Both the position numbers and the translations under genes were made by a program. The notes under the pieces were generated by a model. The model did no database searches, was not told the origin of the DNA, and worked only from the letters and a program-made list of their open reading frames with translations. This document shows positions 935 to 39,263 of a stretch of DNA of 39,263 nucleotides, piece after piece. This stretch comes from a virus (lineage: Duplodnaviria > Heunggongvirae > Uroviricota > Caudoviricetes): IMG/VR virus record IMGVR_UViG_2506520037_000005, positions 1 through 39,263 of that record. The stretch is one strand, 5' to 3'. The number at the start of each line of letters is the position of its first letter. Position 1 is the stretch's first letter.

Positions 935-2620
935 GTGAATATAAACGTCGCCGAATTGTTAAATGGGAATTACATTCTGTTATTATTTGTGGTCCTCGCG
1001 CTTGGGCTATGTCTCGGAAAGTTACGACTTGGTTCGATCCAACTGGGTAATTCCATTGGCGTTTTAGTCGTATCGCTGTTATTAGGCCAACAACATTTCA
1101 GCATTAACACCGATGCGCTTAATCTTGGCTTTATGCTGTTTATTTTCTGCGTCGGGGTCGAAGCCGGACCGAACTTTTTTTCCATTTTTTTTCGCGATGG
1201 GAAAAATTACCTAATGTTAGCACTGGTGATGGTTGGCAGTGCGCTGGTGATCGCCTTAGGGTTAGGTAAGCTGTTTGGCTGGGATATTGGCCTGACGGCC
1301 GGTATGTTAGCAGGCTCTATGACGTCGACACCGGTTCTGGTCGGTGCTGGCGATACACTGCGTCATTCCGGCATGGAAAGCAGGCAGCTCTCACTGGCAC
1401 TGGATAATCTGAGCCTCGGGTATGCCTTAACCTATTTAATCGGTCTGGTGAGTTTGATTGTTGGTGCGCGTTACTTGCCGAAATTGCAGCATCAAGACTT
1501 ACAGACCAGCGCCCAGCAAATCGCCCGCGAACGTGGCCTGGACACTGATGCCAACCGTAAGGTTTATTTACCGGTGATCCGCGCCTATCGCGTCGGCCCG
1601 GAGCTGGTGGCCTGGACAGACGGCAAAAATCTGCGTGAACTGGGTATTTATCGACAAACCGGCTGCTACATTGAACGTATTCGACGTAACGGGATTCTGG
1701 CAAATCCAGACGGTGATGCCGTGCTACAAATGGGCGATGAAATAGCGTTGGTAGGCTATCCCGACGCCCATGCCCGACTCGATCCCAGCTTCCGTAACGG
1801 TAAAGAAGTTTTCGATCGTGACCTTCTCGACATGCGTATCGTCACTGAAGAAGTGGTCGTTAAAAACCATAACGCTGTAGGTAAGCGTCTCGCACAACTG
1901 AAGTTGACCGATCACGGTTGCTTCCTTAACCGCGTCATTCGTAGCCAGATTGAGATGCCGATAGATGACAACGTCGTGCTTAACAAAGGTGACGTTTTAC
2001 AAGTCAGCGGTGATGCCCGTCGCGTAAAAACCATCGCCGATCGCATCGGCTTTATCTCGATTCACAGCCAGGTCACTGACCTGCTGGCATTTTGCGCCTT
2101 CTTTGTTATTGGGCTGATGATCGGGATGATCACCTTCCAGTTCAGCACATTCAGTTTCGGCATGGGGAACGCTGCCGGGTTGTTATTCGCCGGAATTATG
2201 CTGGGCTTTATGCGTGCTAACCACCCGACCTTCGGTTACATTCCGCAAGGTGCATTAAGCATGGTGAAAGAGTTCGGCTTGATGGTGTTTATGGCAGGCG
2301 TTGGTCTGAGCGCCGGTAGCGGTATTAATAACGGCCTGGGCGCGATTGGCGGTCAGATGTTGATTGCCGGATTAATTGTCAGTCTTGTGCCCGTGGTTAT
2401 CTGTTTCTTGTTCGGTGCTTATGTATTGCGAATGAACCGCGCACTGTTGTTCGGCGCAATGATGGGCGCACGCACCTGCGCGCCGGCAATGGAGATCATC
2501 AGTGATACAGCTCGCAGTAACATCCCGGCGCTGGGCTATGCGGGCACCTATGCAATCGCCAACGTCCTGCTGACGCTGGCAGGGACAATCATCGTCATGG
2601 TATGGCCAGGATTAGGATAA
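935..2620 (+). CDS. ybjL: Putative transporter YbjL (AAE family, two TM domains flanking TrkA-C-like domains)
   Basis: 561-aa ORF with hydrophobic N- and C-terminal blocks and a soluble central region; recognised as E. coli YbjL; probable GTG start. Confidence 0.85.
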
Positions 2621-26908: not shown

Positions 26909-28690
26909 TCATTTAAAACGTGTTGCAATATCTGCTGCTTCGATAACTGTTGCTTTTACGGTATTATCGCCAGCACGATAATAAATATCCCCATCATAAC
27001 TAGAATAAGATGCTAGAAGTGGAATTGTAATAACTATAACTCCATAACCATAAAAGTCATTATAGTCAATCAAACTCACCACTTGTGATTTAAGAGGCTC
27101 ACTCAAAGCAGATTTTTTCAACTCATCGCAAAAACGTCTATAATATTCTTCCATTGATATGCCGAGTTTAATAGCTTCTCTTTTAACACCAACAACACTT
27201 CTCTCACCAACTACATGTGCATCTATATCATCAAGCTCTTTTACTCTACTTGTATCACTTGGTTTATCTGTTACACCAAGCAATAACTTACCAACTACAC
27301 CGTTCTTGTTACCTTTACCGATGTTAGCAATAGCACAAATTGTGGAGAATATTTTCTCATGAATGCCATCATCAATAGTTCGCTCTCCGCCTAACATCAA
27401 CAAACCCTGTTTCAGTTCATAATTTGCAAGCTCTATTTCAGATCTTCGTAAAATATCCTCAATATCCACCGTATTGTGAGAATTATAGATATGACTGCTA
27501 TCGGCGCTATCAATAAAGTTATCTTTAATCAAGCCTATGATAGAATTAATATTCTTTCTTCTCTCTTCCCCACCAGTAGCAGATCTTTTAGTATCTAGTC
27601 GAGTGACTATATTATTAAGATTGTCTTTTACACCTTTATAATTATTAATCTTCTTATTTTCTTTAATGAGTAATTCATGAAAAGCAATAAATAACACAGC
27701 AAATATGGCTGGGAAAGCATTTGTAGTACGTTTAGTAAAGATTAAATCCCTGAGTTTAATTTCACCGTCACTATTACATACTTTTGTTATTTCCTGGATG
27801 CAGAATTTAAACTCTTCTGCAAATTTTCCTTCACCATAAACATTAATAGCAGAGCTAATACGACTATACTCTTCATCTTCATTATTATAAATCTGATCAA
27901 GCGCATCTTTGGAACGATCTATTAACTTACCTCCAACAATACAAGCTGCTATATCTGCAATGCATTGCTCATCCATACTGTCACGAAGGTCTGTTGAACG
28001 TAAGATCCCATGTTTTACCCAAAATACTTCTTCCGACTGAATTTGGTAACCATGTTTAGTTAGTGGCAAATCAATGCTAATAGACGGCATTTGCTCTAAA
28101 AGCAATATGTCGTCAGATACATCCCCCCTGATAGAACAGGCAATATCCCTAACCATATTTGAAAATTTATTTTGTATACCAGCCTGGCGCCTTTCTTGAT
28201 CACTAAGTCTATGCCCGTATGTATTAATTCTATCAAAAACATCATTTATTTCGTTCTCAGTCGCATTACGCATAATGGACATTGCAAGAGAATAATCCAA
28301 TAACTGAGTAACCTCACGCTGACTTAAAAGATTATCAGCTTTCACTGCAACAAACTTACCTTCATCCGCTCGATTTTTCGCTGTGGGAAAAGCGTCCAGA
28401 TTAAAACGTTTTCCATCAAGTGATTCATATCCTGTTTCGATGAAAGACATTATTGCATGTAATCTTTGTAGGCCATCAATTATTTCATATGTGCCAGGAT
28501 CATTTTCCCTTTCCGCGAGAAGAACTGCAGGAATTGGATATTTTTTTTGAATGGATTCAATTAATTTTTGTTTCTCTATTGCAGTCCAAACTAATTTTCG
28601 TTGATAACGTCTATTAACAAATATCTTACCTTCAGTAAACCATGAATAAATAGTTTGTATAGAAGTTGTTTGCGGTAATAGTTCAGCCAT
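26909..28690 (-). CDS. DUF262 (ParB-like nuclease superfamily) protein, 593 aa, candidate anti-phage defence protein
   Basis: N-terminal DUF262 signature motifs (NRRYQRKLVW; IIDGLQRL, a DGQQR variant); AT-rich codon usage; lies in the Q-to-A variable region. No recognisable HNH motif in the C-terminal half. Confidence 0.7.
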   Translation of the reverse strand: MAELLPQTTSIQTIYSWFTEGKIFVNRRYQRKLVWTAIEKQKLIESIQKKYPIPAVLLAERENDPGTYEIIDGLQRLHAIMSFIETGYESLDGKRFNLDAFPTAKNRADEGKFVAVKADNLLSQREVTQLLDYSLAMSIMRNATENEINDVFDRINTYGHRLSDQERRQAGIQNKFSNMVRDIACSIRGDVSDDILLLEQMPSISIDLPLTKHGYQIQSEEVFWVKHGILRSTDLRDSMDEQCIADIAACIVGGKLIDRSKDALDQIYNNEDEEYSRISSAINVYGEGKFAEEFKFCIQEITKVCNSDGEIKLRDLIFTKRTTNAFPAIFAVLFIAFHELLIKENKKINNYKGVKDNLNNIVTRLDTKRSATGGEERRKNINSIIGLIKDNFIDSADSSHIYNSHNTVDIEDILRRSEIELANYELKQGLLMLGGERTIDDGIHEKIFSTICAIANIGKGNKNGVVGKLLLGVTDKPSDTSRVKELDDIDAHVVGERSVVGVKREAIKLGISMEEYYRRFCDELKKSALSEPLKSQVVSLIDYNDFYGYGVIVITIPLLASYSSYDGDIYYRAGDNTVKATVIEAADIATRFK

Positions 28691-29222: not shown

Positions 29223-29558
29223 ATGAACAATATTCCCCCTATACCACAGTTAGGAATTTATGTCTCAAAAATCGATCCCACCCTACGTATCACTGTAACC
29301 GATGTTGATATTGTTGATGGTGAGGATGATTCTCCTGATGATGAATTGTTTTATTTAGTCCACTGGATCGAGGGGGAAGATGAAAGTGATATGACAGCAA
29401 TGGGATTTGAGCTAGACCCAGTAGAGTGGCAGGCTTTCGTTGAATCTGAGCAATTAGTGTTTGAGCGTGATCCGTACATGGATTCAATCCCCGAAAATTC
29501 AAACTTGGCAAAGATTCGGGATTTTCTCATGAAGACTAAACAGAATGATCATTCGTAA
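29223..29558 (+). CDS. Small, strongly acidic hypothetical protein (111 aa)
   Basis: Good Shine-Dalgarno (AAAAGGAG) 7 nt upstream of the ATG; Asp/Glu-rich (DGEDDSPDDE, EGEDESD); AT-rich. Confidence 0.6.
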   Translation: MNNIPPIPQLGIYVSKIDPTLRITVTDVDIVDGEDDSPDDELFYLVHWIEGEDESDMTAMGFELDPVEWQAFVESEQLVFERDPYMDSIPENSNLAKIRDFLMKTKQNDHS

Positions 29559-29750
29559 GTGTAAGCATCCATCAGGAAAATGGTTTTGTAAGTGAATCAT
29601 CAACTTTTAGAGAGTCTCAGACACTCCCACTTCTGCTTCTGACACAAAGCGGACGATCACTTATCAAAATAACCGCCCACCTTACGCCTTATTTCACTCA
29701 TTGCCCAAACTAGCCCCCATCAGAATGAATCCTCCTGGGGGCAACATTTC

Positions 29751-29984
29751 TTAATGCAGCCAGCTGTCGTCCTCCCACACCTTCTGCATAATTTTCATCA
29801 CTTGTTTTCTTTCTTCATCCAGTTGCAGTCCGGTTAGTTCCACACCGTTAGAGCTACCTTTGCGAATGCGAATTACCGTTTTGGGATACAGGGGGCGCAG
29901 ATTGCGGTAAAGCTCGGATTCAAGTGCGTCCAAGGTAGACTGGCTAATCTTCTGCTCTTTATCGATCATTATTTCAATGCGCAT
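29751..29984 (-). CDS. DinI-family protein
   Basis: MRIEIMIDKEQKISQSTLDALESEL...WEDDSW collinear with E. coli DinI as recalled; own SD (GAGGTGA). The longer ORF-track start is unlikely. Confidence 0.8.
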   Translation of the reverse strand: MRIEIMIDKEQKISQSTLDALESELYRNLRPLYPKTVIRIRKGSSNGVELTGLQLDEERKQVMKIMQKVWEDDSWLH

Positions 29985-29994
29985 AAAAGTCACC

Positions 29995-30183
29995 TCAGCT
30001 GATGACATCCATTGAGCGGTTGTATTCGTGGCTTCTGATTTTTGCCATGAGTTCATCAGTCAATTCAGAAACCCACTGCAGAGCCAGCCCCTTCTCTTCA
30101 TCACTACACTCACTAGCCGCTACAAGCTTAAGAAAAAAATCAATGCGCTGGAGCTTCAAAGACTCCAAAAAATAGTCCTGCAT
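29995..30183 (-). CDS. Small protein (62 aa), first gene of a LexA-controlled operon; possible Tum-like antirepressor
   Basis: ORF directly downstream of a consensus LexA box and upstream of the DinI-like gene. Confidence 0.5.
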   Translation of the reverse strand: MQDYFLESLKLQRIDFFLKLVAASECSDEEKGLALQWVSELTDELMAKIRSHEYNRSMDVIS

Positions 30184-30223
30184 CTTTCCTCCTATGACAC
30201 CAAAACAATACTGTATACATAAC

Positions 30224-30243
30224 CACTGTTTATATTTACAGTA
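30224..30243. promoter_or_regulatory. LexA (SOS) box overlapping a promoter
   Basis: cACTGTTTATATTTACAGTAt matches the CTGT-N8-ACAG consensus with an AT-rich spacer; sits upstream of the minus-strand small ORF. Confidence 0.7.
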
Positions 30244-30335
30244 TATAATAATCTTACTGATGTAAAACGTTTTTTTACGTTCATCGGCCTGATATGCCTG
30301 GTATTATTAAGAGCACGAATTGTTAACCCGCGTAA

Positions 30336-32750
30336 TTAATACAGGTTCCGCCACTTATCATCTTCCTTCAGACGCTGGTTCCGATAGAAGATACGCAGGC
30401 CTGCTCCTGACGGAATACTGCCGCCGCGAAGGAGCAAATCGACTTCTTTCTCGCTGCCATCAAATCCCCTGGACTTCAGTTCATAGACGAGCTGCTGTCG
30501 CTGATGGTCTGTAATTCGCTGTTTGTAGTCTTTACGCCGTTTCGGTTTCACCTGGCGTAACCTTGCAGCCAGTTCCCGGCGCTCTTTTTTGCTCATACTG
30601 TGCAGGTAATCGTGCAACTCCTTGTCATTCATACGGGTAATATCCGTTCTGGAGTCCCCATCAGCTGATTTGTCTTTCCCTTGTTGGTTCAAATTTTCAG
30701 CAAGGGGACAGTTATTGCCACGAGTCCAAGGGGCGCAAGCGCCCTGGTCGGCTACCGCCTCCTGAACGTCAACGGCCTTACGAACCATTTTCCACTTCAC
30801 TGCATGAGTGCAGATCTTGCCCTCTGAAATGGGTGACCAGATGCCATAAATACGAATACCGTGATCGCCATAGGCAGTCGGCTCTTCGTTAATTTCATAA
30901 GCTGTTCTGATAAGGTGATATTTGCGGGGAACCAGTACGCCGCCCTGCTTCATGATGTAGGTGGCAAAACAACCAGCATCAGCAGCAGCCAGGATGGCAT
31001 CAAGACGCGGATCATCCAGTACCGGCGCACCTGCTTTTTTGTCACCCTGTTGCCTTGCCGCCTGACCAGCCAGCAATCGCAGTTCACGGTAAGCCTGGCG
31101 CCCCGGAATACCAAAGAAGCGGAACTGCTGAACACGATGCAGAGACGCCCAGGCATTAACGTATTCGGCGTTATCACGCAGGGATTTACCCGTTTCCTTG
31201 CTGATCTCGCCAGCCAGACCACGCCCGTCAATGTTCTTACTGATGTATTTTGCGATGTAGCTTGTCGGCGTTCCTTTGCGTGGGTTTATCAGCTCAGACT
31301 TAAAGCGTGGGCCCGTGTTATTGCCCAGCTCCTCGCGGTCTTCACGGATGGCAAACTTACGCAACAATGCAGTAATGGCGCGGCGGTCTTTTTTGCGCAT
31401 GAAACACATGAGATGCCAGTGCACAGTACCGTCATGGTGCGGCTCAGCCACCCGTACGCCATACCAGCGCAACCCGGTTTTGTGCATCGCCTTACGAAAT
31501 GCAGCAAACATGCCGACCAGATAATCGCTGCTTTGTCTTACCGTCGCATTTGTCCAGGTCGGGTTGGGCCTGCCGTTATTGAGCGTGGAATGGAAACGTG
31601 ACGGACATGTGATGGTGTAGAAAACGGCGCAGTCACCGCGCATTTCCGCGATAAGCTCCAGACCTTTAACGCAGGCCATCATCTCATTGCGGCGATGTGC
31701 CGGGTTGCTGCTGCTGGCGTTTACCACATCTTCCATATCCAGCGTGTCTCCGTCTTCGTTCACCAGTTCATGAGAACGGAAAAACTCCAGCGACTTGCGG
31801 CGCTGCTCACGTTTATGCATCACGGCTTCATAGCTGACATAGGGAGATGCTTTTTTGCTGACCAGACAGACAGCACGCAACTGCTCTTCCCGCCATTCGC
31901 AACGCATCTTCCACAATTTTCGATACCACCAGTCGGCGCAAAGCATACGTGCCAGCGAACCCGGTATGAGTTCATAGGGCACAGGTTTGCGGCGGTTTCT
32001 TTTCCGACGAAGTTTCTCAAACGCAGGCGGGATAACATCCAGACGCAGGGTTTCCGCTGCCACCTTTTCCCATGTCTTGCGGATTTCTTCTGGCTTTACG
32101 TCATCGTTGGTATACAAATCACCACAAGCGGCCTCAAGACACATGCTCATATGCGCAGCTACCAGGGTGGACAGGCGTTTCACCTGATCCTGACTCATTT
32201 CAGGCAGGATCAGCAGGCCCTCCAGCCCTTGATGGCTTGCCATAAAACGGAAAGAAGTAGATAGCTGACTGTCGCGTACACAATCCAGTCGCTCCAGACA
32301 TGGCTTAATCGTCTCACGCAAATAGCGGGAATAAGCCTTTGGCCTGCCCAGGCTGCTGAAGTATTCGATACGTTGCATCAGCGGCTTGCTGATGTGGGTG
32401 GGCTGGGCGCTGACGTCCGCCAGAATGACCATGTCCGGGTTAAAACGCTGCTGCTCATGCGCCAGCTTTGCCCGACTAATGAGCTTATCCTGCTCCATTT
32501 CGCGCTGGACAGGATCACGGGATTCATTAAAGAAATAACGCTCCCAGACCTGTTCACTCAATTCCTCGCGGCGCAGCTGTTCCTGCTCGTTATCGGCAGC
32601 ATACAGAGTGATCAGGTTTGAAAGCGCAGAAACCGGCGCAACTTCCGCCGGGTCCAGATAAGGGTTTATGGCCTTTTTCGGGCCGTTCCATGAAAATGCT
32701 GCAGCGGCCTCGTTAAAGCCGCTAGAGTCGCTCATATCGGCATGACTCAT
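30336..32750 (-). CDS. A: Replication initiation protein A (rolling-circle nickase)
   Basis: 804-aa ORF in the P2 gpA position, recognised as P2 A-like. Confidence 0.85.
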
Positions 32751-34551: not shown

Positions 34552-34800
34552 ATGTTGAACCCGGTTGAAAGAGAGCGTATAGAGCAACTTGAAAACGAGA
34601 TCTCCAGTCTTCGCGATGAGGTTGCTGTTCAACGAATTCTTGTTTCAGGTCTGATCCACTCCTTATTTCGAACTGACTCAGCAAATCAATCTGCATTTTT
34701 TGAGCTCCTCCGCGAAGAATTAAACAAACTTCCTTTAGGTTCGGTTAAACAACAAGAATTCACTCATCTGATACAGACACTGATAGATCGTTACCGATAA
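34552..34800 (+). CDS. Hypothetical small coiled-coil protein, antisense to the early operon
   Basis: 82-aa ORF with SD (AAGGAA) and heptad-like N-terminus; competes with an overlapping minus-strand ORF at 34460-34696. Confidence 0.35.
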   Translation: MLNPVERERIEQLENEISSLRDEVAVQRILVSGLIHSLFRTDSANQSAFFELLREELNKLPLGSVKQQEFTHLIQTLIDRYR

Positions 34801-35015
34801 ATATTTCGCCGATAACGTTCAAGAGGTGATGTCTTTATACGCATCACTTCTTGTACTTTTTCACCACGTATAAAGGTTCCATCCTTTAGAGTGAAAAAGT
34901 AGCTACCATCGCCCGACAACGACGGATAGCAACAGAGCAAATCATCTTCAGGTACTGAATAATTCTCCCCTCTGTAACGAAAGTGATAAACCACTTCATT
35001 TTCTGCCGCATACAT
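34791..35015 (-). CDS. Hypothetical early protein (186 fil/dhr region)
   Basis: 74-aa ORF with SD (GGAGAAAG); overlaps another minus-frame ORF (34886-35215). Confidence 0.45.
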   Translation of the reverse strand: MYAAENEVVYHFRYRGENYSVPEDDLLCCYPSLSGDGSYFFTLKDGTFIRGEKVQEVMRIKTSPLERYRRNIYR

Positions 35016-35189
35016 TTGGACTTTCTCCGTTTCCTCGTGGTCAATTCAGACAGCAATTCATCTTGTGAACGGCACGGATGCCAGTGTTTACCATCCTCAC
35101 CCATGATCCAGCCGTGACCGTAGTGCATTGCCGGGCTTTGTTTTACCAGCAGCGATGCAAATGATGGCTCTTTCGTCAGCATAAGCACC

Positions 35190-35699
35190 TCACAGCAAAC
35201 CGAATGAAGCACCAAGGCCAGTCACGGTATCCACCGCACTTGCCATTGCTGGATTCGCCTGTAGACGTGCCTGCAATGAAACTGCGGTCAGTGCCATCAA
35301 ACGCGTAACTGAATTAATACTGCTGATTACATCGCGGCGGCCTGCGGTAGTTTTCACTTCACCAGAGACAGCACCGGCAGCAACACGCCCGATCTCTGCT
35401 GTAGCATTCAGAACGTAGTACGGCATCTTCTCGCTTGCTACTTCGTTCACAGGGACACACGCCAGACAGTTAATCTGCGCCAGAAAGCCATCAACCAAAG
35501 TTGGGTCCTCGGTGAGATCTGTAAGCAGCCAGATCTCTGGCGCAGTGAGCTGGTGCGACTGCTCTGGGTTCAGCTTATTACGCAGGGTTTGAACGTTCAT
35601 ACCTGCGCGTTCTGCCAGCTTCGACATGTTGTGACGCAAAGCGAAGGTCCGGCAGGCTTCATCAAAATGTCTTTGTTTGGAAACTTTATAATCAAACAT
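35190..35699 (-). CDS. cII: CII-like lysogeny-establishment regulator (186 CII type)
   Basis: 169 aa from internal ATG (MFDYKVSKQRHFDEACRTFALRHNMSKLAE...GASFGLL), collinear with 186 CII as recalled. Confidence 0.8.
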   Translation of the reverse strand: MFDYKVSKQRHFDEACRTFALRHNMSKLAERAGMNVQTLRNKLNPEQSHQLTAPEIWLLTDLTEDPTLVDGFLAQINCLACVPVNEVASEKMPYYVLNATAEIGRVAAGAVSGEVKTTAGRRDVISSINSVTRLMALTAVSLQARLQANPAMASAVDTVTGLGASFGLL

Positions 35700-35764
35700 A
35701 GTTTTCATCTCCGAACTTATCGCAAAATCGAACCATAAAACAGATTTCGATAAGCAAAGTCTTT

Positions 35765-35968
35765 TCATGCCGAAAGTGCATCTACTGTCAAAGCAGCCAT
35801 GTTAATCATGACTTTTTCACGCTTCTTATCTTTACGGAGACGATGCCGCGGAAGTCGGCCATCAGCCAACATGTCATTGATCGTATCAACCGGAAGGCCT
35901 GTGAGTTCGCTATAACGTTCAATTGTGACGTGTGGTGTGTTCAGAGTGATTGAAATGTTTGGGTTCAT
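35765..35968 (-). CDS. apl: Apl/Cox-type excisionase and lytic-switch regulator
   Basis: About 67 aa from internal ATG (MNPNISITLN...) with an HTH-like segment; first gene of the rightward early operon; SD AAGGAA. Confidence 0.7.
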   Translation of the reverse strand: MNPNISITLNTPHVTIERYSELTGLPVDTINDMLADGRLPRHRLRKDKKREKVMINMAALTVDALSA

Positions 35969-36058
35969 GGTGCAACATTCCTTCTTTAATTCGGCTTGTG
36001 GCGAGCCGTTGTTTATCGTGATTAGTTGTGAAGGCTCCAAAAGAAGACTTCGAGGTCA

Positions 36059-36088
36059 ACTTTAAGATCGCTTTTGGAATCTGTCAAT
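36059..36088 (-). promoter_or_regulatory. Candidate early lytic promoter pR (-35 TTGACA, 17-bp spacer, -10 TAAAGT)
   Basis: Consensus -35 and acceptable -10 read on the minus strand upstream of apl, in the face-to-face position expected for a 186-type switch. Confidence 0.45.
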
Positions 36089-36114
36089 GCAATTTAGATT
36101 GTTTTGGAGGACTC

Positions 36115-36678
36115 TTGAATTTCAATAGCGGCGGAAAGAAAGTGATTGAACGTTTGGTTGAGGCGTATGGTTTCACCACTCGTCAGGCCCTTTGCGACCA
36201 CTTAGGGGTTTCAAAGAGCACAATGGCAACCCGCTACATGCGTGACATTTTTCCAGCAGATTGGGTACTTCAATGCGTTGTAGAAACTGGTACTTCAATT
36301 GATTGGCTGGTATCAGGGAAAGGTGAGTTAAAAACCACAGCAGTCAACTCTTTGGTAGACGTTGAAACTCGCGAACTAAAAAATGGAGAGGCTATTGCAC
36401 TTGGAACGCACAAGATTGATCCAGTCTTTCTTCTCAATGAAATAAAATCTGCATTAGCGATAAAAATTAACCAACATGTTTACATTTGTGACCGAGAAGA
36501 CACTACCATTTCTGATGGTCAATGGTTGGTGGATATAGAAGGAAAACTGAGTATTAAAAAAATCAATTTGATACCAGTCAAAAGAGCAATGGTATCTGGG
36601 GATGGTTTTTCATTTGAATGTGATATTAGTGATATAAAACCTATAGCTAAGGTTCATACCGTAATCAGTGAGGCTTAA
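36115..36678 (+). CDS. cI: CI-type immunity repressor (186 CI-like, N-terminal HTH)
   Basis: HTH segment (TTRQALCDHLGVSKSTMATRYMR) and about 190-aa size. Start is uncertain: the ORF opens at 36028, but an in-frame TTG at 36115 follows a GGAGG. Confidence 0.7.
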   Translation: MNFNSGGKKVIERLVEAYGFTTRQALCDHLGVSKSTMATRYMRDIFPADWVLQCVVETGTSIDWLVSGKGELKTTAVNSLVDVETRELKNGEAIALGTHKIDPVFLLNEIKSALAIKINQHVYICDREDTTISDGQWLVDIEGKLSIKKINLIPVKRAMVSGDGFSFECDISDIKPIAKVHTVISEA

Positions 36679-38130
36679 ATGGATATTGAGTGGAATTGGG
36701 ATCAAGATGACGAATTTCTTGGTGAAAAATTACCTGCAGATACATTGGACAGAAAAAAGTACGCAAAATATCTTTATGAAATCTGTGCTGCACGCGGTGC
36801 TAAATCCAATCTCGTAGTTAACATTAATGCGGAATGGGGGGCTGGAAAAACATATTTTACTAAACGCCTAGCCAAGACAATTTCCCACTACCATCCCACA
36901 ATATACATTGATGCTTGGAAAGAAGATTTTACTGAAGACCCATTGCTCACAGTATTTAGTGGAATTAAAGATCAATTATCTGGTCAATCTGATAGCTTTA
37001 CTGCTTTAATCAATTCAACAATTGAGAATGTCGGTCCTTTGCTAAAAACAGCGGCACCAGTTATTATTGATGGATTAATACAAAAGTTCACAGGGGTTGA
37101 CTCCTTTTCTAACCTAACTAAAGACTTATCATCTAAGCTAATAGAAATACACGCAGAAAAATCAACGAGAATAGAGACAGTAAGAAAAGGAATTAGTCGT
37201 TGGGTTGAATTCATTGGGCGAAAAGATGGAATAGATAAAGAGCTTCCATTATTTATAATAATTGATGAACTTGATAGATGTAGGCCCGATTTTTCCATTA
37301 GTCTTTTAGAAATCTCCAAGCATATTTTTAACATCCCTGGCGTAGTATTTATTATTGCCACTGACACCCAACAATTACAGCATTCAATAAAAGTTATATA
37401 TGGCACTAATTTTTCAGCAAGTCATTATCTAAGCAGGTTTTTTGACCGTCGATTCCTTCTCCCAACGCCAGAATACAAAGACTTACTATTAACAAAAACA
37501 GGTGAAAACATAATTTCGGAATTTAATTCTTTACGTGAAAAATTAATTCCATGCCCACAAGACATCACATCATTTGTTAAAAATTGTTCATCCATATTAT
37601 TATCCATAAAAATAAACATCAGAGACGCTGTAAAAATATACGAGAGGCTAATAGACATACTTATCACGTCAAATAAAACATTTGACCCCAATCTAATGTT
37701 GATATTATCTGCATTTAATTTCAAAGATCATGATGTATATGCAAAAATAAAATCAAAAGAAAAGCTAATTCCTAGTCCTCTCAACACAGAAATAGATTTA
37801 TCATTTGATTTATCTTATGAAACTACACAAGTCAAGTACTTCCAAGCTAATGGTGGTGTTTATAGTAATACGTATAAACAAAAAGAAATTTCAACAAATG
37901 TTCTATTTTACATAGAGACTGCTTGGAACACCTTAACGATAGCAAGAACCGCACCTGTTGGCACGCGACCTTACAATACTCCAGAACTTTGGATGGAAGG
38001 AGAGTTGTCTCAGGAGGAATCATTAGCGAACTTTCTCAAAATGGGATACGCCAAAAGCCGGTACAATGAAAGTGAACTAAAAATTCATCAATATTTCGAT
38101 TTAATTGAACTGAGCACAACATTTGATTGA
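36679..38130 (+). CDS. KAP-family P-loop NTPase (PifA-like), candidate phage-exclusion protein
   Basis: Walker A EWGAGKT and the KAP-type Walker B FIIIDELDRCRP; ATG follows the cI stop codon directly; AT-rich. Confidence 0.75.
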   Translation: MDIEWNWDQDDEFLGEKLPADTLDRKKYAKYLYEICAARGAKSNLVVNINAEWGAGKTYFTKRLAKTISHYHPTIYIDAWKEDFTEDPLLTVFSGIKDQLSGQSDSFTALINSTIENVGPLLKTAAPVIIDGLIQKFTGVDSFSNLTKDLSSKLIEIHAEKSTRIETVRKGISRWVEFIGRKDGIDKELPLFIIIDELDRCRPDFSISLLEISKHIFNIPGVVFIIATDTQQLQHSIKVIYGTNFSASHYLSRFFDRRFLLPTPEYKDLLLTKTGENIISEFNSLREKLIPCPQDITSFVKNCSSILLSIKINIRDAVKIYERLIDILITSNKTFDPNLMLILSAFNFKDHDVYAKIKSKEKLIPSPLNTEIDLSFDLSYETTQVKYFQANGGVYSNTYKQKEISTNVLFYIETAWNTLTIARTAPVGTRPYNTPELWMEGELSQEESLANFLKMGYAKSRYNESELKIHQYFDLIELSTTFD

Positions 38131-38185
38131 TGTATGAGTTCACCTAAACATACATTGACCACTGTTTAAACATACAGTTAAATTT

Positions 38186-38210
38186 AGCCCTCAGACATGA
38201 GGGCTTTTTT
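38186..38210 (+). terminator. Rho-independent terminator immediately upstream of int
   Basis: Stem agccctca / tgagggct followed by TTTTTT, then the int ATG. Confidence 0.65.
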
Positions 38211-39263
38211 ATGGCAGTACGAAAACTCGACACAGGTAAATGGATATGCGAATGCTACCCCGCCGGGCGCAGCGGACGGCGTGTGCGTAAGCAATTCGCC
38301 ACCAAAGGTGAAGCGTTAGCATTTGAACGGCACATAATGGAGGAAACTGAAGCTAAGCCCTGGCTGGGTGAATCGGTAGATCGCCGAACTCTGAAAGACG
38401 TCGTTGAACTCTGGTTCAAACTGCACGGCAAATCTCTGACCGCTGGCGAGCATGTTTACGACAAGCTGATCCTGATGGTCGAAGCTCTCGGAAATCCCCT
38501 CGCCACCGATTTAACATCCAAAATGTTCGCGCACTATCGCGATAAACGCCTGACAGGAGAGATCTACTTCAGCGAGAAATGGAAGAAAGGAGCAAGCCCG
38601 GTCACTATTAATCTGGAGCAAAGCTATCTAAGTAGTGTTTTTAGCGAACTATCCCGCCTGGGCGAATGGTCGTATCCGAACCCACTGGAGAACATGCGAA
38701 AATTCACCATCGCAGAAAAAGAGATGGCATGGCTTACCCATGAGCAGATTGTTGAATTGCTGGCTGATTGCAAACGTCAGGACCCAATTCTGGCACTGGT
38801 AGTTAAGATATGCTTAAGCACAGGCGCACGCTGGCGTGAAGCCGTAAATCTTACCCGCTCGCAGGTGACCAAATACCGAATTACCTTTGTAAGAACGAAG
38901 GGGAAGAAAAACAGAAGCATCCCTATCAGTAAAGAGCTTTACGAAGAGATCATGGCGCTTGATGGGTTCAATTTCTTCACAGACTGCTATTTTCAATTTT
39001 TATCCGTGATGGAAAAAACGTCTATCGTGCTGCCTCGCGGTCAACTGACACACGTTCTGCGCCATACGTTTGCGGCGCACTTCATGATGTCGGGTGGAAA
39101 CATCCTGGCCTTACAAAAAATTCTCGGACACCACGATATAAAAATGACTATGCGTTATGCGCATCTGGCACCGGATCATCTGGAAACGGCGCTCCGTTTC
39201 AATCCTCTGGCAACATTGCCAAGTGGCGACAAAGTGGCGGCAGCGGTTGGCATTACCCCGTAA
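38211..39263 (+). CDS. int: Tyrosine integrase (P2/186 family)
   Basis: 350-aa ORF; C-terminal catalytic region with R...HxxR...Y (VLRHTFAAH...MRYAHL); stop codon is the last 3 nt of the window. Confidence 0.9.
   Translation: MAVRKLDTGKWICECYPAGRSGRRVRKQFATKGEALAFERHIMEETEAKPWLGESVDRRTLKDVVELWFKLHGKSLTAGEHVYDKLILMVEALGNPLATDLTSKMFAHYRDKRLTGEIYFSEKWKKGASPVTINLEQSYLSSVFSELSRLGEWSYPNPLENMRKFTIAEKEMAWLTHEQIVELLADCKRQDPILALVVKICLSTGARWREAVNLTRSQVTKYRITFVRTKGKKNRSIPISKELYEEIMALDGFNFFTDCYFQFLSVMEKTSIVLPRGQLTHVLRHTFAAHFMMSGGNILALQKILGHHDIKMTMRYAHLAPDHLETALRFNPLATLPSGDKVAAAVGITP

What the first reader, a model, noticed from the sequence alone, without database searches (positions are those of the whole stretch)
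29751..30260. LexA-box-controlled two-gene operon (small ORF plus DinI-like protein) suggesting SOS-inducible antirepression
A near-consensus SOS box (ACTGTTTATATTTACAGTAT) overlaps a promoter upstream of a 62-aa ORF, followed by a separately initiated DinI-family gene. P2 itself is not SOS-inducible, whereas 186 uses a LexA-regulated Tum antirepressor. Together with the 186-type CII, Apl and CI, this suggests the prophage is UV-inducible through this module.
Basis: partly seen in the sequence, partly recalled or inferred. Interest (0 to 1): 0.5.

Follow-up and report, generated by a model that had tools for sequence, protein, structure and literature searches.

The report
Known SOS-controlled Tum antirepressor operon
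This is the well-known DNA-damage switch of 186/Fels-2-type prophages: a LexA-repressed promoter drives a small antirepressor (TumA) and a DinI-like protein, and deleting the identical gene in E. coli HS has already been shown to abolish induction, so the finding is correct but ordinary.

Summary
On the minus strand there is a perfect CTGT-N8-ACAG SOS box (30224-30243, 17/20 to consensus). It is followed by a 62-aa ORF (30183-29995) and a separately initiated 77-aa DinI-family gene (29984-29751). The window is the rybB-site P2-like prophage of E. coli W (100% identity).

The 62-aa protein is a remote homologue of the N-terminal (antirepressor) half of coliphage 186 Tum (hhalign 94.9%, E 4.7e-8; shared PHROG hits). 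The DinI-like protein is 41% identical to Tum's C-terminal half. The split tumA/tumB layout is already annotated in PsP3 and described for Fels-2.

Both proteins are amino-acid identical to those of prophage DuoHS of E. coli HS. There, an in-frame deletion of exactly this 62-aa gene (ECHS_RS04495), or lexA(Ind-), abolishes mitomycin-C-induced lysis (PMC12055606).

One inference remains: this prophage's CI is only 43-47% identical to the CIs shown or reported to respond.

In passing, I found a conserved LexA-type box inside a promoter-like site directly upstream of int. It is kept across at least 12 enterobacterial genera, and I found no description of it.

The parts
30261..30266 (-). -35-like hexamer TTTACA of the putative p95-type (tum) promoter
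   Evidence: Read from the sequence. It lies 17 nt upstream of TACTGT. The same layout is seen in the annotated 186 p95 (TTCACA-18-TACTGT) and in PsP3 and ESSI-2. Inferred by analogy; the generic scan did not call it.
30224..30243 (-). Primary LexA operator (SOS box) TACTGTAAATATAAACAGTG. Its first six bases (30243-30238) double as the -10 hexamer.
   Evidence: Perfect CTGT-N8-ACAG and a 17/20 match to consensus. Identical in E. coli HS and Fels-2. An equivalent box lies upstream of tum in 186, PsP3, Yersinia 06.16-2 and ESSI-2. A LexA site is annotated at the same place in 186.
30209..30228 (-). Possible second, weaker SOS-like box CAGTGGTTATGTATACAGTA, overlapping the first by 5 nt
   Evidence: 15/20 to consensus. 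The right arm ACAGTA is kept, while spacer bases differ among W, HS and Fels-2. The left arm is GTGG, not CTGT, so this is speculative.
29995..30183 (-). tumA: 62-aa antirepressor homologue (RefSeq WP_001154431.1, annotated 'hypothetical protein'); SD GGAGG at 30192-30188
   Evidence: phrog_698 at 5.9e-38. The 186 Tum N-half hits the same PHROGs 698, 8554 and 1993. hhalign against the 186/PsP3/Yersinia Tum N-halves gives 94.9%, E 4.7e-8 over residues 5-43. The protein and DNA are identical to ECHS_RS04495, the 'tum' gene deleted in PMC12055606.
29751..29984 (-). tumB: 77-aa DinI-like protein (WP_001217575.1), with its own ATG and an SD (GAGG, 29996-29993) overlapping the tumA stop codon
   Evidence: Pfam DinI at 6.6e-23, profile positions 1-63 of 63. 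41% identical to 186 Tum residues 71-145. Matches the E. coli DinI structure 1GHH at E 2.7e-6. Identical to the HS and Fels-2 proteins.
29713..29742 (-). Hairpin GCCCCCA...TGGGGGC just after the tumB stop; a possible weak operon terminator at the boundary with the variable cargo region
   Evidence: Folds at -18.9 kcal/mol, but z is only -1.67 and the T-run is poor. Similarity to HS and Fels-2 ends at the tumB stop codon.
36112..36678 (+). cI, the 186-type immunity repressor and presumed target of TumA (RefSeq calls the start at GTG 36028)
   Evidence: Pfam Phage_CI_repr at 6e-30 plus Phage_CI_C at 5e-24. Identity is 47% to DuoHS CI, 43% to Fels-2 CI and 36% to 186 CI. The N-terminal domain is 58-69% identical to the DuoHS and Fels-2 CIs, the C-terminal domain only 30%.
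38155..38211 (+). Not in the finding. Promoter-like site (-35 TTGACC 38155-38160, -10 TTAAAT/TAAATT 38178-38184) with a LexA-type box (38160-38179) in its spacer. It is followed by a hairpin (38186-38205) holding the int SD, then the int ATG at 38211.
   Evidence: hairpin z = -4.4. The layout is conserved upstream of int in 27 of 41 loci from at least 12 genera, with invariant arms and a variable spacer. LexA binding is inferred only.

Best explanation
The locus is the SOS-induction operon of a 186/Fels-2-type (Felsduovirus-like) prophage of E. coli W integrated at rybB.

Proposed mechanism:
1. In a lysogen, host LexA sits on an operator that overlaps the -10 hexamer of a p95-type promoter located just downstream of replication gene A.
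2. DNA damage leads to RecA-stimulated LexA self-cleavage, and the promoter fires.
3. The first cistron makes TumA, a 62-aa antirepressor that binds the 186-type CI repressor and prevents operator binding. This derepresses the early lytic promoter (Apl-like protein, CII, replication genes).
4. The second cistron makes a DinI-like protein (TumB) that most likely binds RecA filaments and tunes the strength or duration of the SOS signal.

Basis for each step:
- Shown here: the sequence features, the homologies, and identity to the experimentally tested DuoHS module.
- Taken from the literature: the genetic requirement for tum and cleavable LexA (DuoHS), and that Tum binds its cognate repressor and prevents operator binding (186).
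- Inferred: that this TumA inactivates this prophage's own, divergent CI, and the role of the DinI-like protein.
For: Sequence features:
- The SOS box is 17/20 to consensus, identical in HS and Fels-2, and a box is present upstream of tum in 7 of 7 related phages.
- The promoter layout equals the annotated 186 p95, with a LexA site over the -10.
- Synteny (gene A, then the promoter, tumA and tumB) matches 186, PsP3, Fels-2 and DuoHS.

Homology:
- TumA matches the Tum N-half: cross PHROG hits and hhalign 94.9%, E 4.7e-8.
- TumB is DinI-like: Pfam 6.6e-23, 41% identical to the Tum C-half, and it matches 1GHH.

Published annotation and statements:
- PsP3 annotates tumA ('UV induction of prophage') and tumB.
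- PMC3121763 states that Fels-2 and PSP3 have tum split by a stop codon, with the upstream gene encoding the antirepressor. It also states that 186 Tum binds its cognate repressor and prevents operator binding.

Direct genetics on the identical module:
- TumA and TumB are 100% identical to the E. coli HS DuoHS proteins.
- The Δtum strain (ECHS_RS04495; the primers fuse exactly this ORF's ATG and TGA) and lexA(Ind-) both fail to lyse after mitomycin C (PMC12055606).

Tolerance of CI divergence:
- DuoHS and Fels-2 share 97% identical TumA, yet their CIs are only 46% identical. DuoHS is shown to be tum-dependent; Fels-2 is only reported to use an antirepressor mechanism. To that extent, TumA appears to tolerate CI divergence like that seen here.
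- The window's CI has both 186-type Pfam domains.
Against: - There is no experiment on this prophage itself.
- Its CI is a rare immunity type: the full region occurs in 12 of 5426 E. coli genomes, and it is less than 60% identical to every CI in the phage collection. Sensitivity to TumA is therefore inferred.
- The -10 hexamer is weak (TACTGT), and the generic promoter scan found no site.
- BLASTP finds no similarity between the 62-aa ORF and 186 Tum. Homology rests on profile methods over about 39 residues.
- The prophage shows some decay or cargo insertion: RefSeq marks fil as a pseudogene. It might not complete lytic growth.
- The DinI-like protein scores far below the NCBIfam DinI equivalog cut-off (42.7 vs 111 bits), so its RecA-modulating role is an extrapolation.
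Confidence: 0.87

Rival explanations
1. The operon is a genuine LexA-controlled tumA-tumB module, but it does not induce this particular prophage. Either the divergent CI is insensitive to this TumA, or the prophage is defective. The module would then be a carried-over remnant that acts, if at all, in trans on related co-resident prophages or only modulates SOS.
For: CI is only 43-47% identical to the Fels-2 and DuoHS CIs, with the C-terminal domain at 30%. The tum module is in 1125 E. coli genomes, whereas this immunity region is in 12, so the two parts have been reshuffled by recombination. fil is a pseudogene and extra cargo genes interrupt the early and immunity regions. Trans-acting antirepressors are documented for the Gifsy phages (PMC3121763).
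Against: DuoHS and Fels-2 carry equally divergent CIs with near-identical TumA; DuoHS is shown to be induced through tum and Fels-2 is reported to use an antirepressor mechanism. The CI N-terminal domain is well conserved (58-69%) among carriers of this TumA type. All essential early, replication and late ORFs appear intact. tumA, tumB and the operator carry no disabling changes.
Confidence: 0.1
2. The selected function is mainly the DinI-like protein acting as a host-beneficial SOS modulator (a moron). On this view the 62-aa ORF is an unrelated leader peptide rather than an antirepressor.
For: Only the DinI-like gene has a curated family assignment. The 62-aa ORF has no Pfam or NCBIfam family and is 'hypothetical' in RefSeq and in nearly all phage records.
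Against: Profile homology links the ORF to the Tum antirepressor half. The in-frame deletion of only this ORF, which leaves the DinI-like gene and its SD intact, abolishes induction in E. coli HS. ESSI-2 and Yersinia 06.16-2 carry a LexA-boxed tumA with no DinI-like gene annotated downstream.
Confidence: 0.02
3. Chance: an AT-rich palindrome that happens to resemble an SOS box, sitting next to a spurious short ORF.
For: Two CTGT-N8-ACAG matches in the window are reached by 10 of 100 shuffles. The promoter scan is negative.
Against: The box, its spacing and the ORF are conserved across genera and phage lineages. There is experimental genetics on the identical sequence.
Confidence: 0.01

Closest known systems
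Prophage DuoHS of E. coli HS: tum (ECHS_RS04495) plus the DinI-like gene (ECHS_RS04500); PMC12055606
   Same: TumA and TumB are amino-acid identical, and the tumA DNA is identical. The SOS box, -35/-10 and SD are identical, as are the position after gene A and the chromosomal site next to rcdA/rybB. Δtum and lexA(Ind-) block mitomycin-C induction.
   Different: The CI repressor is only 47% identical. The cargo differs downstream of tumB and between cI and int.
Coliphage 186 SOS operon (p95, LexA site, tum, orf97)
   Same: A LexA box overlaps a TACTGT -10. The operon sits right after gene A. It encodes an N-terminal antirepressor part and a C-terminal DinI-like part. CI and CII are 186-type.
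   Different: In 186, Tum is one 146-aa polypeptide with internal starts; here there are two cistrons. The TumA part is only about 21% identical and detectable only by profiles. There is no orf97 homologue downstream, because the variable cargo region starts at the tumB stop.
PsP3 tumA/tumB and Fels-2 STM2728/STM2726.1
   Same: The same split two-gene layout behind a LexA box. Fels-2 is 96.6% identical in DNA, its TumA matches at 60 of 62 residues, and its TumB is identical. The split and the assignment of the antirepressor to the upstream gene are stated in PMC3121763.
   Different: PsP3 TumA belongs to the 186-like sequence type (22% identity in the alignment). In Fels-2, int follows cI directly and lacks the int-upstream element seen here.
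Gifsy/Fels-1 LexA-controlled antirepressor operons (gfoA/gftA with dinI; PMC3121763)
   Same: The same logic: a LexA-repressed operon encodes a small antirepressor plus a DinI homologue, and the repressor is inactivated by binding rather than cleavage.
   Different: The gene order is reversed (dinI first). The phages and repressors are lambdoid. No sequence relationship to TumA was tested or claimed here.
E. coli DinI (PDB 1GHH; RecA-filament-binding SOS modulator)
   Same: Full-length alignment, the same size class, and a conserved C-terminal W-E-x-D-x-W helix region.
   Different: It scores far below the NCBIfam DinI equivalog cut-off (42.7 vs 111 bits). It is a phage paralogue, and RecA binding has not been shown for it.

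Membership tests
Tum/TumA antirepressor (N-terminal half of coliphage 186 Tum) | Sequence homology to the Tum N-terminal region | tested here: met
   hhalign of {window, Fels-2, ESSI-2} against {186 N-half, PsP3 TumA, Yersinia tum} gives 94.9%, E 4.7e-8 over residues 5-43 of both. The 186 N-half hits phrog_698, the window protein's family, at 6.4e-6. Both proteins hit phrog_8554 and phrog_1993. Pairwise BLASTP is negative.
Tum/TumA antirepressor (N-terminal half of coliphage 186 Tum) | Expression from a LexA-operated promoter | tested here: met
   At sequence level only. A 17/20 SOS box overlaps the -10, conserved in 7 of 7 relatives. LexA binding itself was not testable here.
Tum/TumA antirepressor (N-terminal half of coliphage 186 Tum) | Genomic position immediately downstream of replication gene A, on the same strand, in a phage with 186-type CI | tested here: met
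Tum/TumA antirepressor (N-terminal half of coliphage 186 Tum) | Required for SOS induction of the prophage | not testable with these tools
   Shown in the literature for the identical protein in E. coli HS (PMC12055606). Not shown for the E. coli W prophage.
Tum/TumA antirepressor (N-terminal half of coliphage 186 Tum) | Binds CI and blocks its DNA binding | not testable with these tools
   PMC3121763 states this for 186 Tum, citing Shearwin et al. 1998. It is inferred here, and the CI is divergent.
DinI family (Pfam PF06183) | Profile match above the gathering threshold over the whole domain | tested here: met
   81.3 bits against a cut-off of 24.2, profile positions 1-63 of 63. Matches 1GHH at E 2.7e-6.
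DinI proper (NCBIfam NF007893 equivalog) | Score at or above the equivalog cut-off | tested here: not met
   42.7 bits against a cut-off of 111. It is a DinI-like paralogue, not the host DinI orthologue.
DinI family (Pfam PF06183) | Binds RecA filaments and modulates co-protease activity | not testable with these tools
   Extrapolated from E. coli DinI and from the 186 record's notes on truncated Tum ('modulates SOS induction').
Gammaproteobacterial LexA operator (SOS box) | CTGT-N8-ACAG palindrome with an AT-rich spacer, placed over core promoter elements | tested here: met
186-type immunity region (CI, Apl, CII) | CI with Phage_CI_repr and Phage_CI_C domains; a CII homologue; a small Apl/Cox-like gene divergent from cI | tested here: inconclusive
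   CI is met. CII is met, at 67% identity. The Apl candidate (35968..35765) has no BLASTP match to 186 Apl and only a sub-threshold excisionase-domain hit.

The most novel reading that the evidence does not exclude
This prophage group would have a two-promoter LexA regulon rather than one. Besides tumA-tumB, the int gene would have its own LexA-operated promoter. Its transcripts would start inside a conserved hairpin that otherwise terminates or masks the int ribosome-binding site on read-through from cI. Integrase supply would then become SOS-dependent. In addition, one invariant TumA would serve many immunity types by recognising the conserved N-terminal domain of CI, which would allow cross-induction between co-resident relatives.
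Probability: 0.35. Interest if true: 0.45.

Novelty: already known. Interest (0 to 1): 0.13.

Why it matters
For the finding itself, little is new. It correctly recognises the published LexA-Tum antirepression route of 186/Fels-2-type prophages, in a copy whose two proteins are identical to an experimentally tested one.

Practical value:
- It fills an annotation gap. The 62-aa antirepressor is labelled 'hypothetical protein' in RefSeq (WP_001154431.1), PHROG 698 is 'unknown function', and there is no Pfam or NCBIfam model. Yet the module occurs in about a fifth of complete E. coli genomes (1125 of 5426).
- It predicts that the industrial strain E. coli W and its derivatives (for example KO11FL) carry an SOS-inducible P2-like prophage.

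The by-product observation, a conserved LexA-type box in a promoter directly upstream of int, would add a second SOS-controlled step (integrase supply) to this phage group if confirmed.

Tried and rejected
- **Pairwise BLASTP.** The 62-aa ORF against 186 Tum and against PsP3 TumA gave nothing. PsP3 TumA against 186 Tum also gave nothing. BLASTP is simply too insensitive for these 60-aa proteins, so I used profile methods instead.
- **Generic sigma-70 scan.** It found no promoter at 29500-30500. I kept the promoter assignment only by analogy with the annotated 186 p95.
- **'Terminator-like' site at 30006-29989.** It spans the tumA stop and the tumB SD but folds no better than shuffles (z = -1.09). 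I do not claim an attenuator.
- **Family scans for the 62-aa ORF.** Pfam and NCBIfam gave no family.
- **MAFFT alignment of the upstream region with 186 p95.** It was uninformative and was replaced by a direct box scan.
- **Literature.** Bunny et al. 2002 (PMC151935), the primary Fels-2 tum paper, is not held, so I cite it only through PMC3121763. A search for 'TumA/TumB' returned only noise. A search for an SOS box at P2-like int returned nothing.
- **Searches not run.** I did not run the large protein-database searches or structure prediction, because the identity to a genetically tested gene made them unnecessary.

Full report
**What is there.** The feature lies on the minus strand. Reading 5'->3' on that strand, the elements are:
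- TTTACA (30266-30261), followed by a 17-nt spacer.
- TACTGTAAATATAAACAGTG (30243-30224), a perfect CTGT-N8-ACAG palindrome matching the E. coli SOS-box consensus TACTGTATATATATACAGTA (consensus from general knowledge) at 17 of 20 positions.
- A second, weaker box (30228-30209, 15/20).
- A strong Shine-Dalgarno GGAGG (30192-30188), then a 62-codon ORF (30183-29995).
- Its TGA stop overlaps GAGG, and 8 nt later comes the ATG (29984) of a 77-codon ORF ending at 29751.

CTGT-N8-ACAG occurs twice in the window against 0.53 expected, and 10 of 100 shuffles reach two. The motif count alone is therefore weak evidence. The case rests on position and conservation.

**Where the window comes from.** The 641-bp region is 100% identical to E. 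coli W, its derivative KO11FL and several other strains. At 80% coverage or more, it is present in 1071 of 5426 complete E. coli genomes. The immunity end of the window (35000-39263) is 100% identical to E. coli W and is found in full in only 12 genomes. In E. coli W the element sits next to rcdA. It corresponds to the P2-type prophage 'Rybb*W' at rybB listed in the W genome paper (PMC3032704). Window 935-2620 is a flanking host permease gene.

**The second gene.** The 77-aa protein matches Pfam DinI over the whole profile (E 6.6e-23) and the solved E. coli DinI structure 1GHH (E 2.7e-6). It is 41% identical to residues 71-145 of coliphage 186 Tum. It scores well below the NCBIfam equivalog cut-off for host DinI (42.7 vs 111 bits). 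It is therefore a DinI-like paralogue, not DinI itself.

**The first gene.** Pfam and NCBIfam have no family for it. RefSeq and nearly all phage records call it hypothetical. BLASTP against 186 Tum finds nothing, but BLASTP also fails between PsP3 TumA and 186 Tum.

Profile methods connect them:
- The ORF hits phrog_698 (5.9e-38), phrog_8554 (1.1e-8) and phrog_1993 (2e-3).
- The N-terminal 69 residues of 186 Tum hit the same three families (6.4e-6, 3.2e-12, 1.9e-23) in the same register.
- An hhalign of {window, Fels-2, ESSI-2} against {186 N-half, PsP3 TumA, Yersinia 'tum protein'} gives 94.9% probability and E 4.7e-8 over residues 5-43 of both.

The two cistrons together thus correspond to the two halves of 186 Tum.

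**Promoter and operator.** In the 186 record, p95 is annotated with -35 TTCACA, an 18-nt spacer, -10 TACTGT, and a LexA site starting at that -10. The window has TTTACA, 17 nt and TACTGT, with the SOS box starting at the same hexamer. PsP3 and ESSI-2 show the same arrangement. In all seven phages inspected (window, HS, Fels-2, 186, PsP3, Yersinia 06.16-2, ESSI-2), the best SOS-like 20-mer upstream of tum/tumA scores 17-19/20 and lies 18-41 nt from the start codon. The generic sigma-70 scan misses the site because TACTGT matches TATAAT at only 3 of 6 positions. The promoter is thus inferred by analogy, not shown.

**What is already known.**
- PsP3 annotates the two genes as tumA ('similar to 5' end 186 tum; UV induction of prophage') and tumB ('similar to dinI and 3' end of 186 tum').
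- Fels-2 is 96.6% identical to the window over this region.
- In E. coli HS the prophage DuoHS carries the same module. The tumA DNA and both proteins are identical to the window.
- In PMC12055606, 'tum' is locus tag ECHS_RS04495, the 189-bp ORF. The deletion primers fuse its ATG to its TGA and leave the DinI-like gene intact.
- Both Δtum and lexA(Ind-) strains fail to lyse or form viral foci after mitomycin C.

**What remains inferred.** TumA must act on this prophage's own CI. That CI has both 186-type CI Pfam domains. However, it is only 47% identical to DuoHS CI, 43% to Fels-2 CI and 36% to 186 CI, and below 60% to every CI in the phage collection.

Two points favour sensitivity. First, DuoHS and Fels-2 share 97% identical TumA although their CIs are only 46% identical. 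DuoHS is shown to depend on tum, while for Fels-2 I have only the statement that it is regulated by an antirepressor mechanism. Second, among the three CIs that travel with this TumA type, the N-terminal HTH domain is 58-69% identical, while the C-terminal domain is 26-30% identical. This fits, but does not prove, recognition of the N-terminal domain.

One point counts against. RefSeq marks fil as a pseudogene, and extra genes interrupt the early and immunity regions. Full lytic competence of the W prophage is therefore untested.

CII is 67% identical to 186 CII. The Apl candidate is supported only by position and by a sub-threshold excisionase-domain hit.

**Operon end.** Similarity to HS and Fels-2 stops exactly at the tumB stop codon. 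186 has orf97 next. Here a weak hairpin follows, then a convergent 111-aa ORF of unknown function and a GmrSD/NsnA-like gene. This is the variable cargo region between the tum operon and the portal gene. The hairpin across the tumA/tumB junction that the scan flagged as terminator-like is not better than shuffles.

**By-product: a second LexA-type box at int.** The other CTGT-N8-ACAG in the window (38162-38177) sits in the spacer of a promoter-like site (TTGACC...TTAAAT/TAAATT). It is followed by a strong hairpin (38186-38205, z = -4.4) whose 3' arm contains the int Shine-Dalgarno. The int ATG follows at 38211.

To test this without presupposing the motif, I fetched int homologues from one genome per species and inspected their upstream regions.
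- 27 of 41 loci that include the int N-terminus keep the same layout. These are all the loci with int at 69% identity or more, apart from one Buttiauxella locus (76%). They come from Escherichia, Enterobacter, Silvania, Raoultella, Citrobacter, Klebsiella, Scandinavium, Dryocola, Kluyvera, Serratia, Yersinia and Leclercia.
- The TG and CAGT positions of the two arms are invariant, the neighbouring arm positions are nearly so, and the -35 is largely kept. The 8-nt spacer shows 15 variants among the 20 strict matches.
- The hairpin is maintained by different sequences in different lineages.
- Of 26 strict CTGT-N8-ACAG motifs in 338 kb of these loci, 20 fall in the 45-nt slot before int (about 4.8 expected overall).
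- Fels-2 and 186 have int directly after cI and lack the element.

Conservation of the arms across phages with different immunity regions points to a host factor, most simply LexA. I found no paper describing this in the held library, which is not proof of novelty. Because a -10 at 38178-38184 would place the start inside the 5' arm of the hairpin, I speculate that SOS-derepressed transcripts escape the hairpin that terminates or masks int on read-through from cI. This is inference only.

**Verdict.** The system is already known: 186 p95-tum, the split tumA/tumB of PsP3 and Fels-2, and genetics on the identical DuoHS genes. Interest in the finding as given is low. The residual open points are whether this TumA inactivates this rare CI type, what the DinI-like protein contributes, and whether the int-upstream box is a real LexA operator.

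Noticed in passing
window 38155-38211 (+); also L016, L018-L032, L034-L037, L042, L043, L045, L058, L060, L066 about 30-70 nt upstream of int: A LexA-type box (CACTGTTTAAACATACAGTT) lies in the spacer of a promoter-like site directly upstream of int. It is followed by a conserved hairpin that contains the int SD. The layout is conserved upstream of int in at least 12 enterobacterial genera, with near-invariant arms, a variable spacer and hairpins kept with different sequences. 20 of 26 strict motifs in 338 kb fall in this slot. The element is absent from Fels-2 and 186, and I found no description of it in the held literature.
   Followed up: partly
window 36679-38130 (+): A 483-aa KAP-family P-loop NTPase is inserted between cI and int (Pfam KAP_NTPase 8e-36; PADLOC candidate system PDC-S20 4e-82; weaker PifA and QatA hits). 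It is probably an anti-phage cargo gene. Other relatives carry different genes at this spot (DUF4041, a YdcA-family small protein).
   Followed up: partly
window 26909-28690 (-): A 593-aa protein with a GmrSD_N/DUF262 domain (Pfam 1.6e-22; PADLOC NsnA 8e-31; weak Schlafen AlbA_2 hit) sits in the variable region between the tum operon and portal gene Q. It is a likely defence cargo. 186 has orf97 here, and Fels-2 and HS have other genes.
   Followed up: partly
window 29223-29558 (+): A 111-aa acidic ORF convergent with the tum operon. It matches phrog_17127 (2e-70, unknown function), has no Pfam or PADLOC hit, and is annotated hypothetical in E. coli W.
   Followed up: no
window 36028/36112-36678 (+) versus L004, L008, L001: TumA is 97-100% identical in the W, HS and Fels-2 prophages, yet their CIs are only 43-47% identical overall. 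The CI N-terminal HTH domain is 58-69% identical and the C-terminal domain 26-30%. This hints that TumA recognises the N-terminal domain and could act across immunity types. The tum module is in 1125 E. coli genomes, this immunity region in 12.
   Followed up: partly
window 36028 vs 36112: RefSeq starts cI at GTG 36028 (216 aa), which leaves only about 59 bp to the divergent Apl-like gene. A TTG start at 36112 gives 188 aa, matches the DuoHS CI N-terminus, and leaves a 143-bp switch region like those of 186 and HS. The annotated start is probably too far upstream.
   Followed up: no
window ~34552-35183: The fil homologue is marked as a C-terminally truncated pseudogene in RefSeq. An 82-aa ORF of unknown function lies on the opposite strand inside the early operon (34552-34800). 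This is a sign of cargo insertion or decay in the early region.
   Followed up: no
window 30209-30228 (-): A second, weaker SOS-like box (CAGTGGTTATGTATACAGTA, 15/20) overlaps the main tum operator. Its right arm is conserved while its spacer differs among W, HS and Fels-2. It may be a tandem LexA site.
   Followed up: partly
hits H32/H156 and H52/H165 (NZ_CP026085.1, NZ_CM135829.1): Two RefSeq assemblies labelled E. coli 'DH5alpha' carry this prophage at 100% identity, including the rare immunity region. To my knowledge K-12 strains lack this prophage, so these are probably mislabelled W-lineage strains.
   Followed up: no
L006 (Yersinia phage vB_YenM_06.16-2) and L007 (Cronobacter phage ESSI-2): These relatives have a LexA-boxed tumA homologue but no DinI-like gene annotated after it. 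The ESSI-2 tumA ORF is not annotated at all. This suggests the DinI-like cistron is an optional add-on.
   Followed up: no
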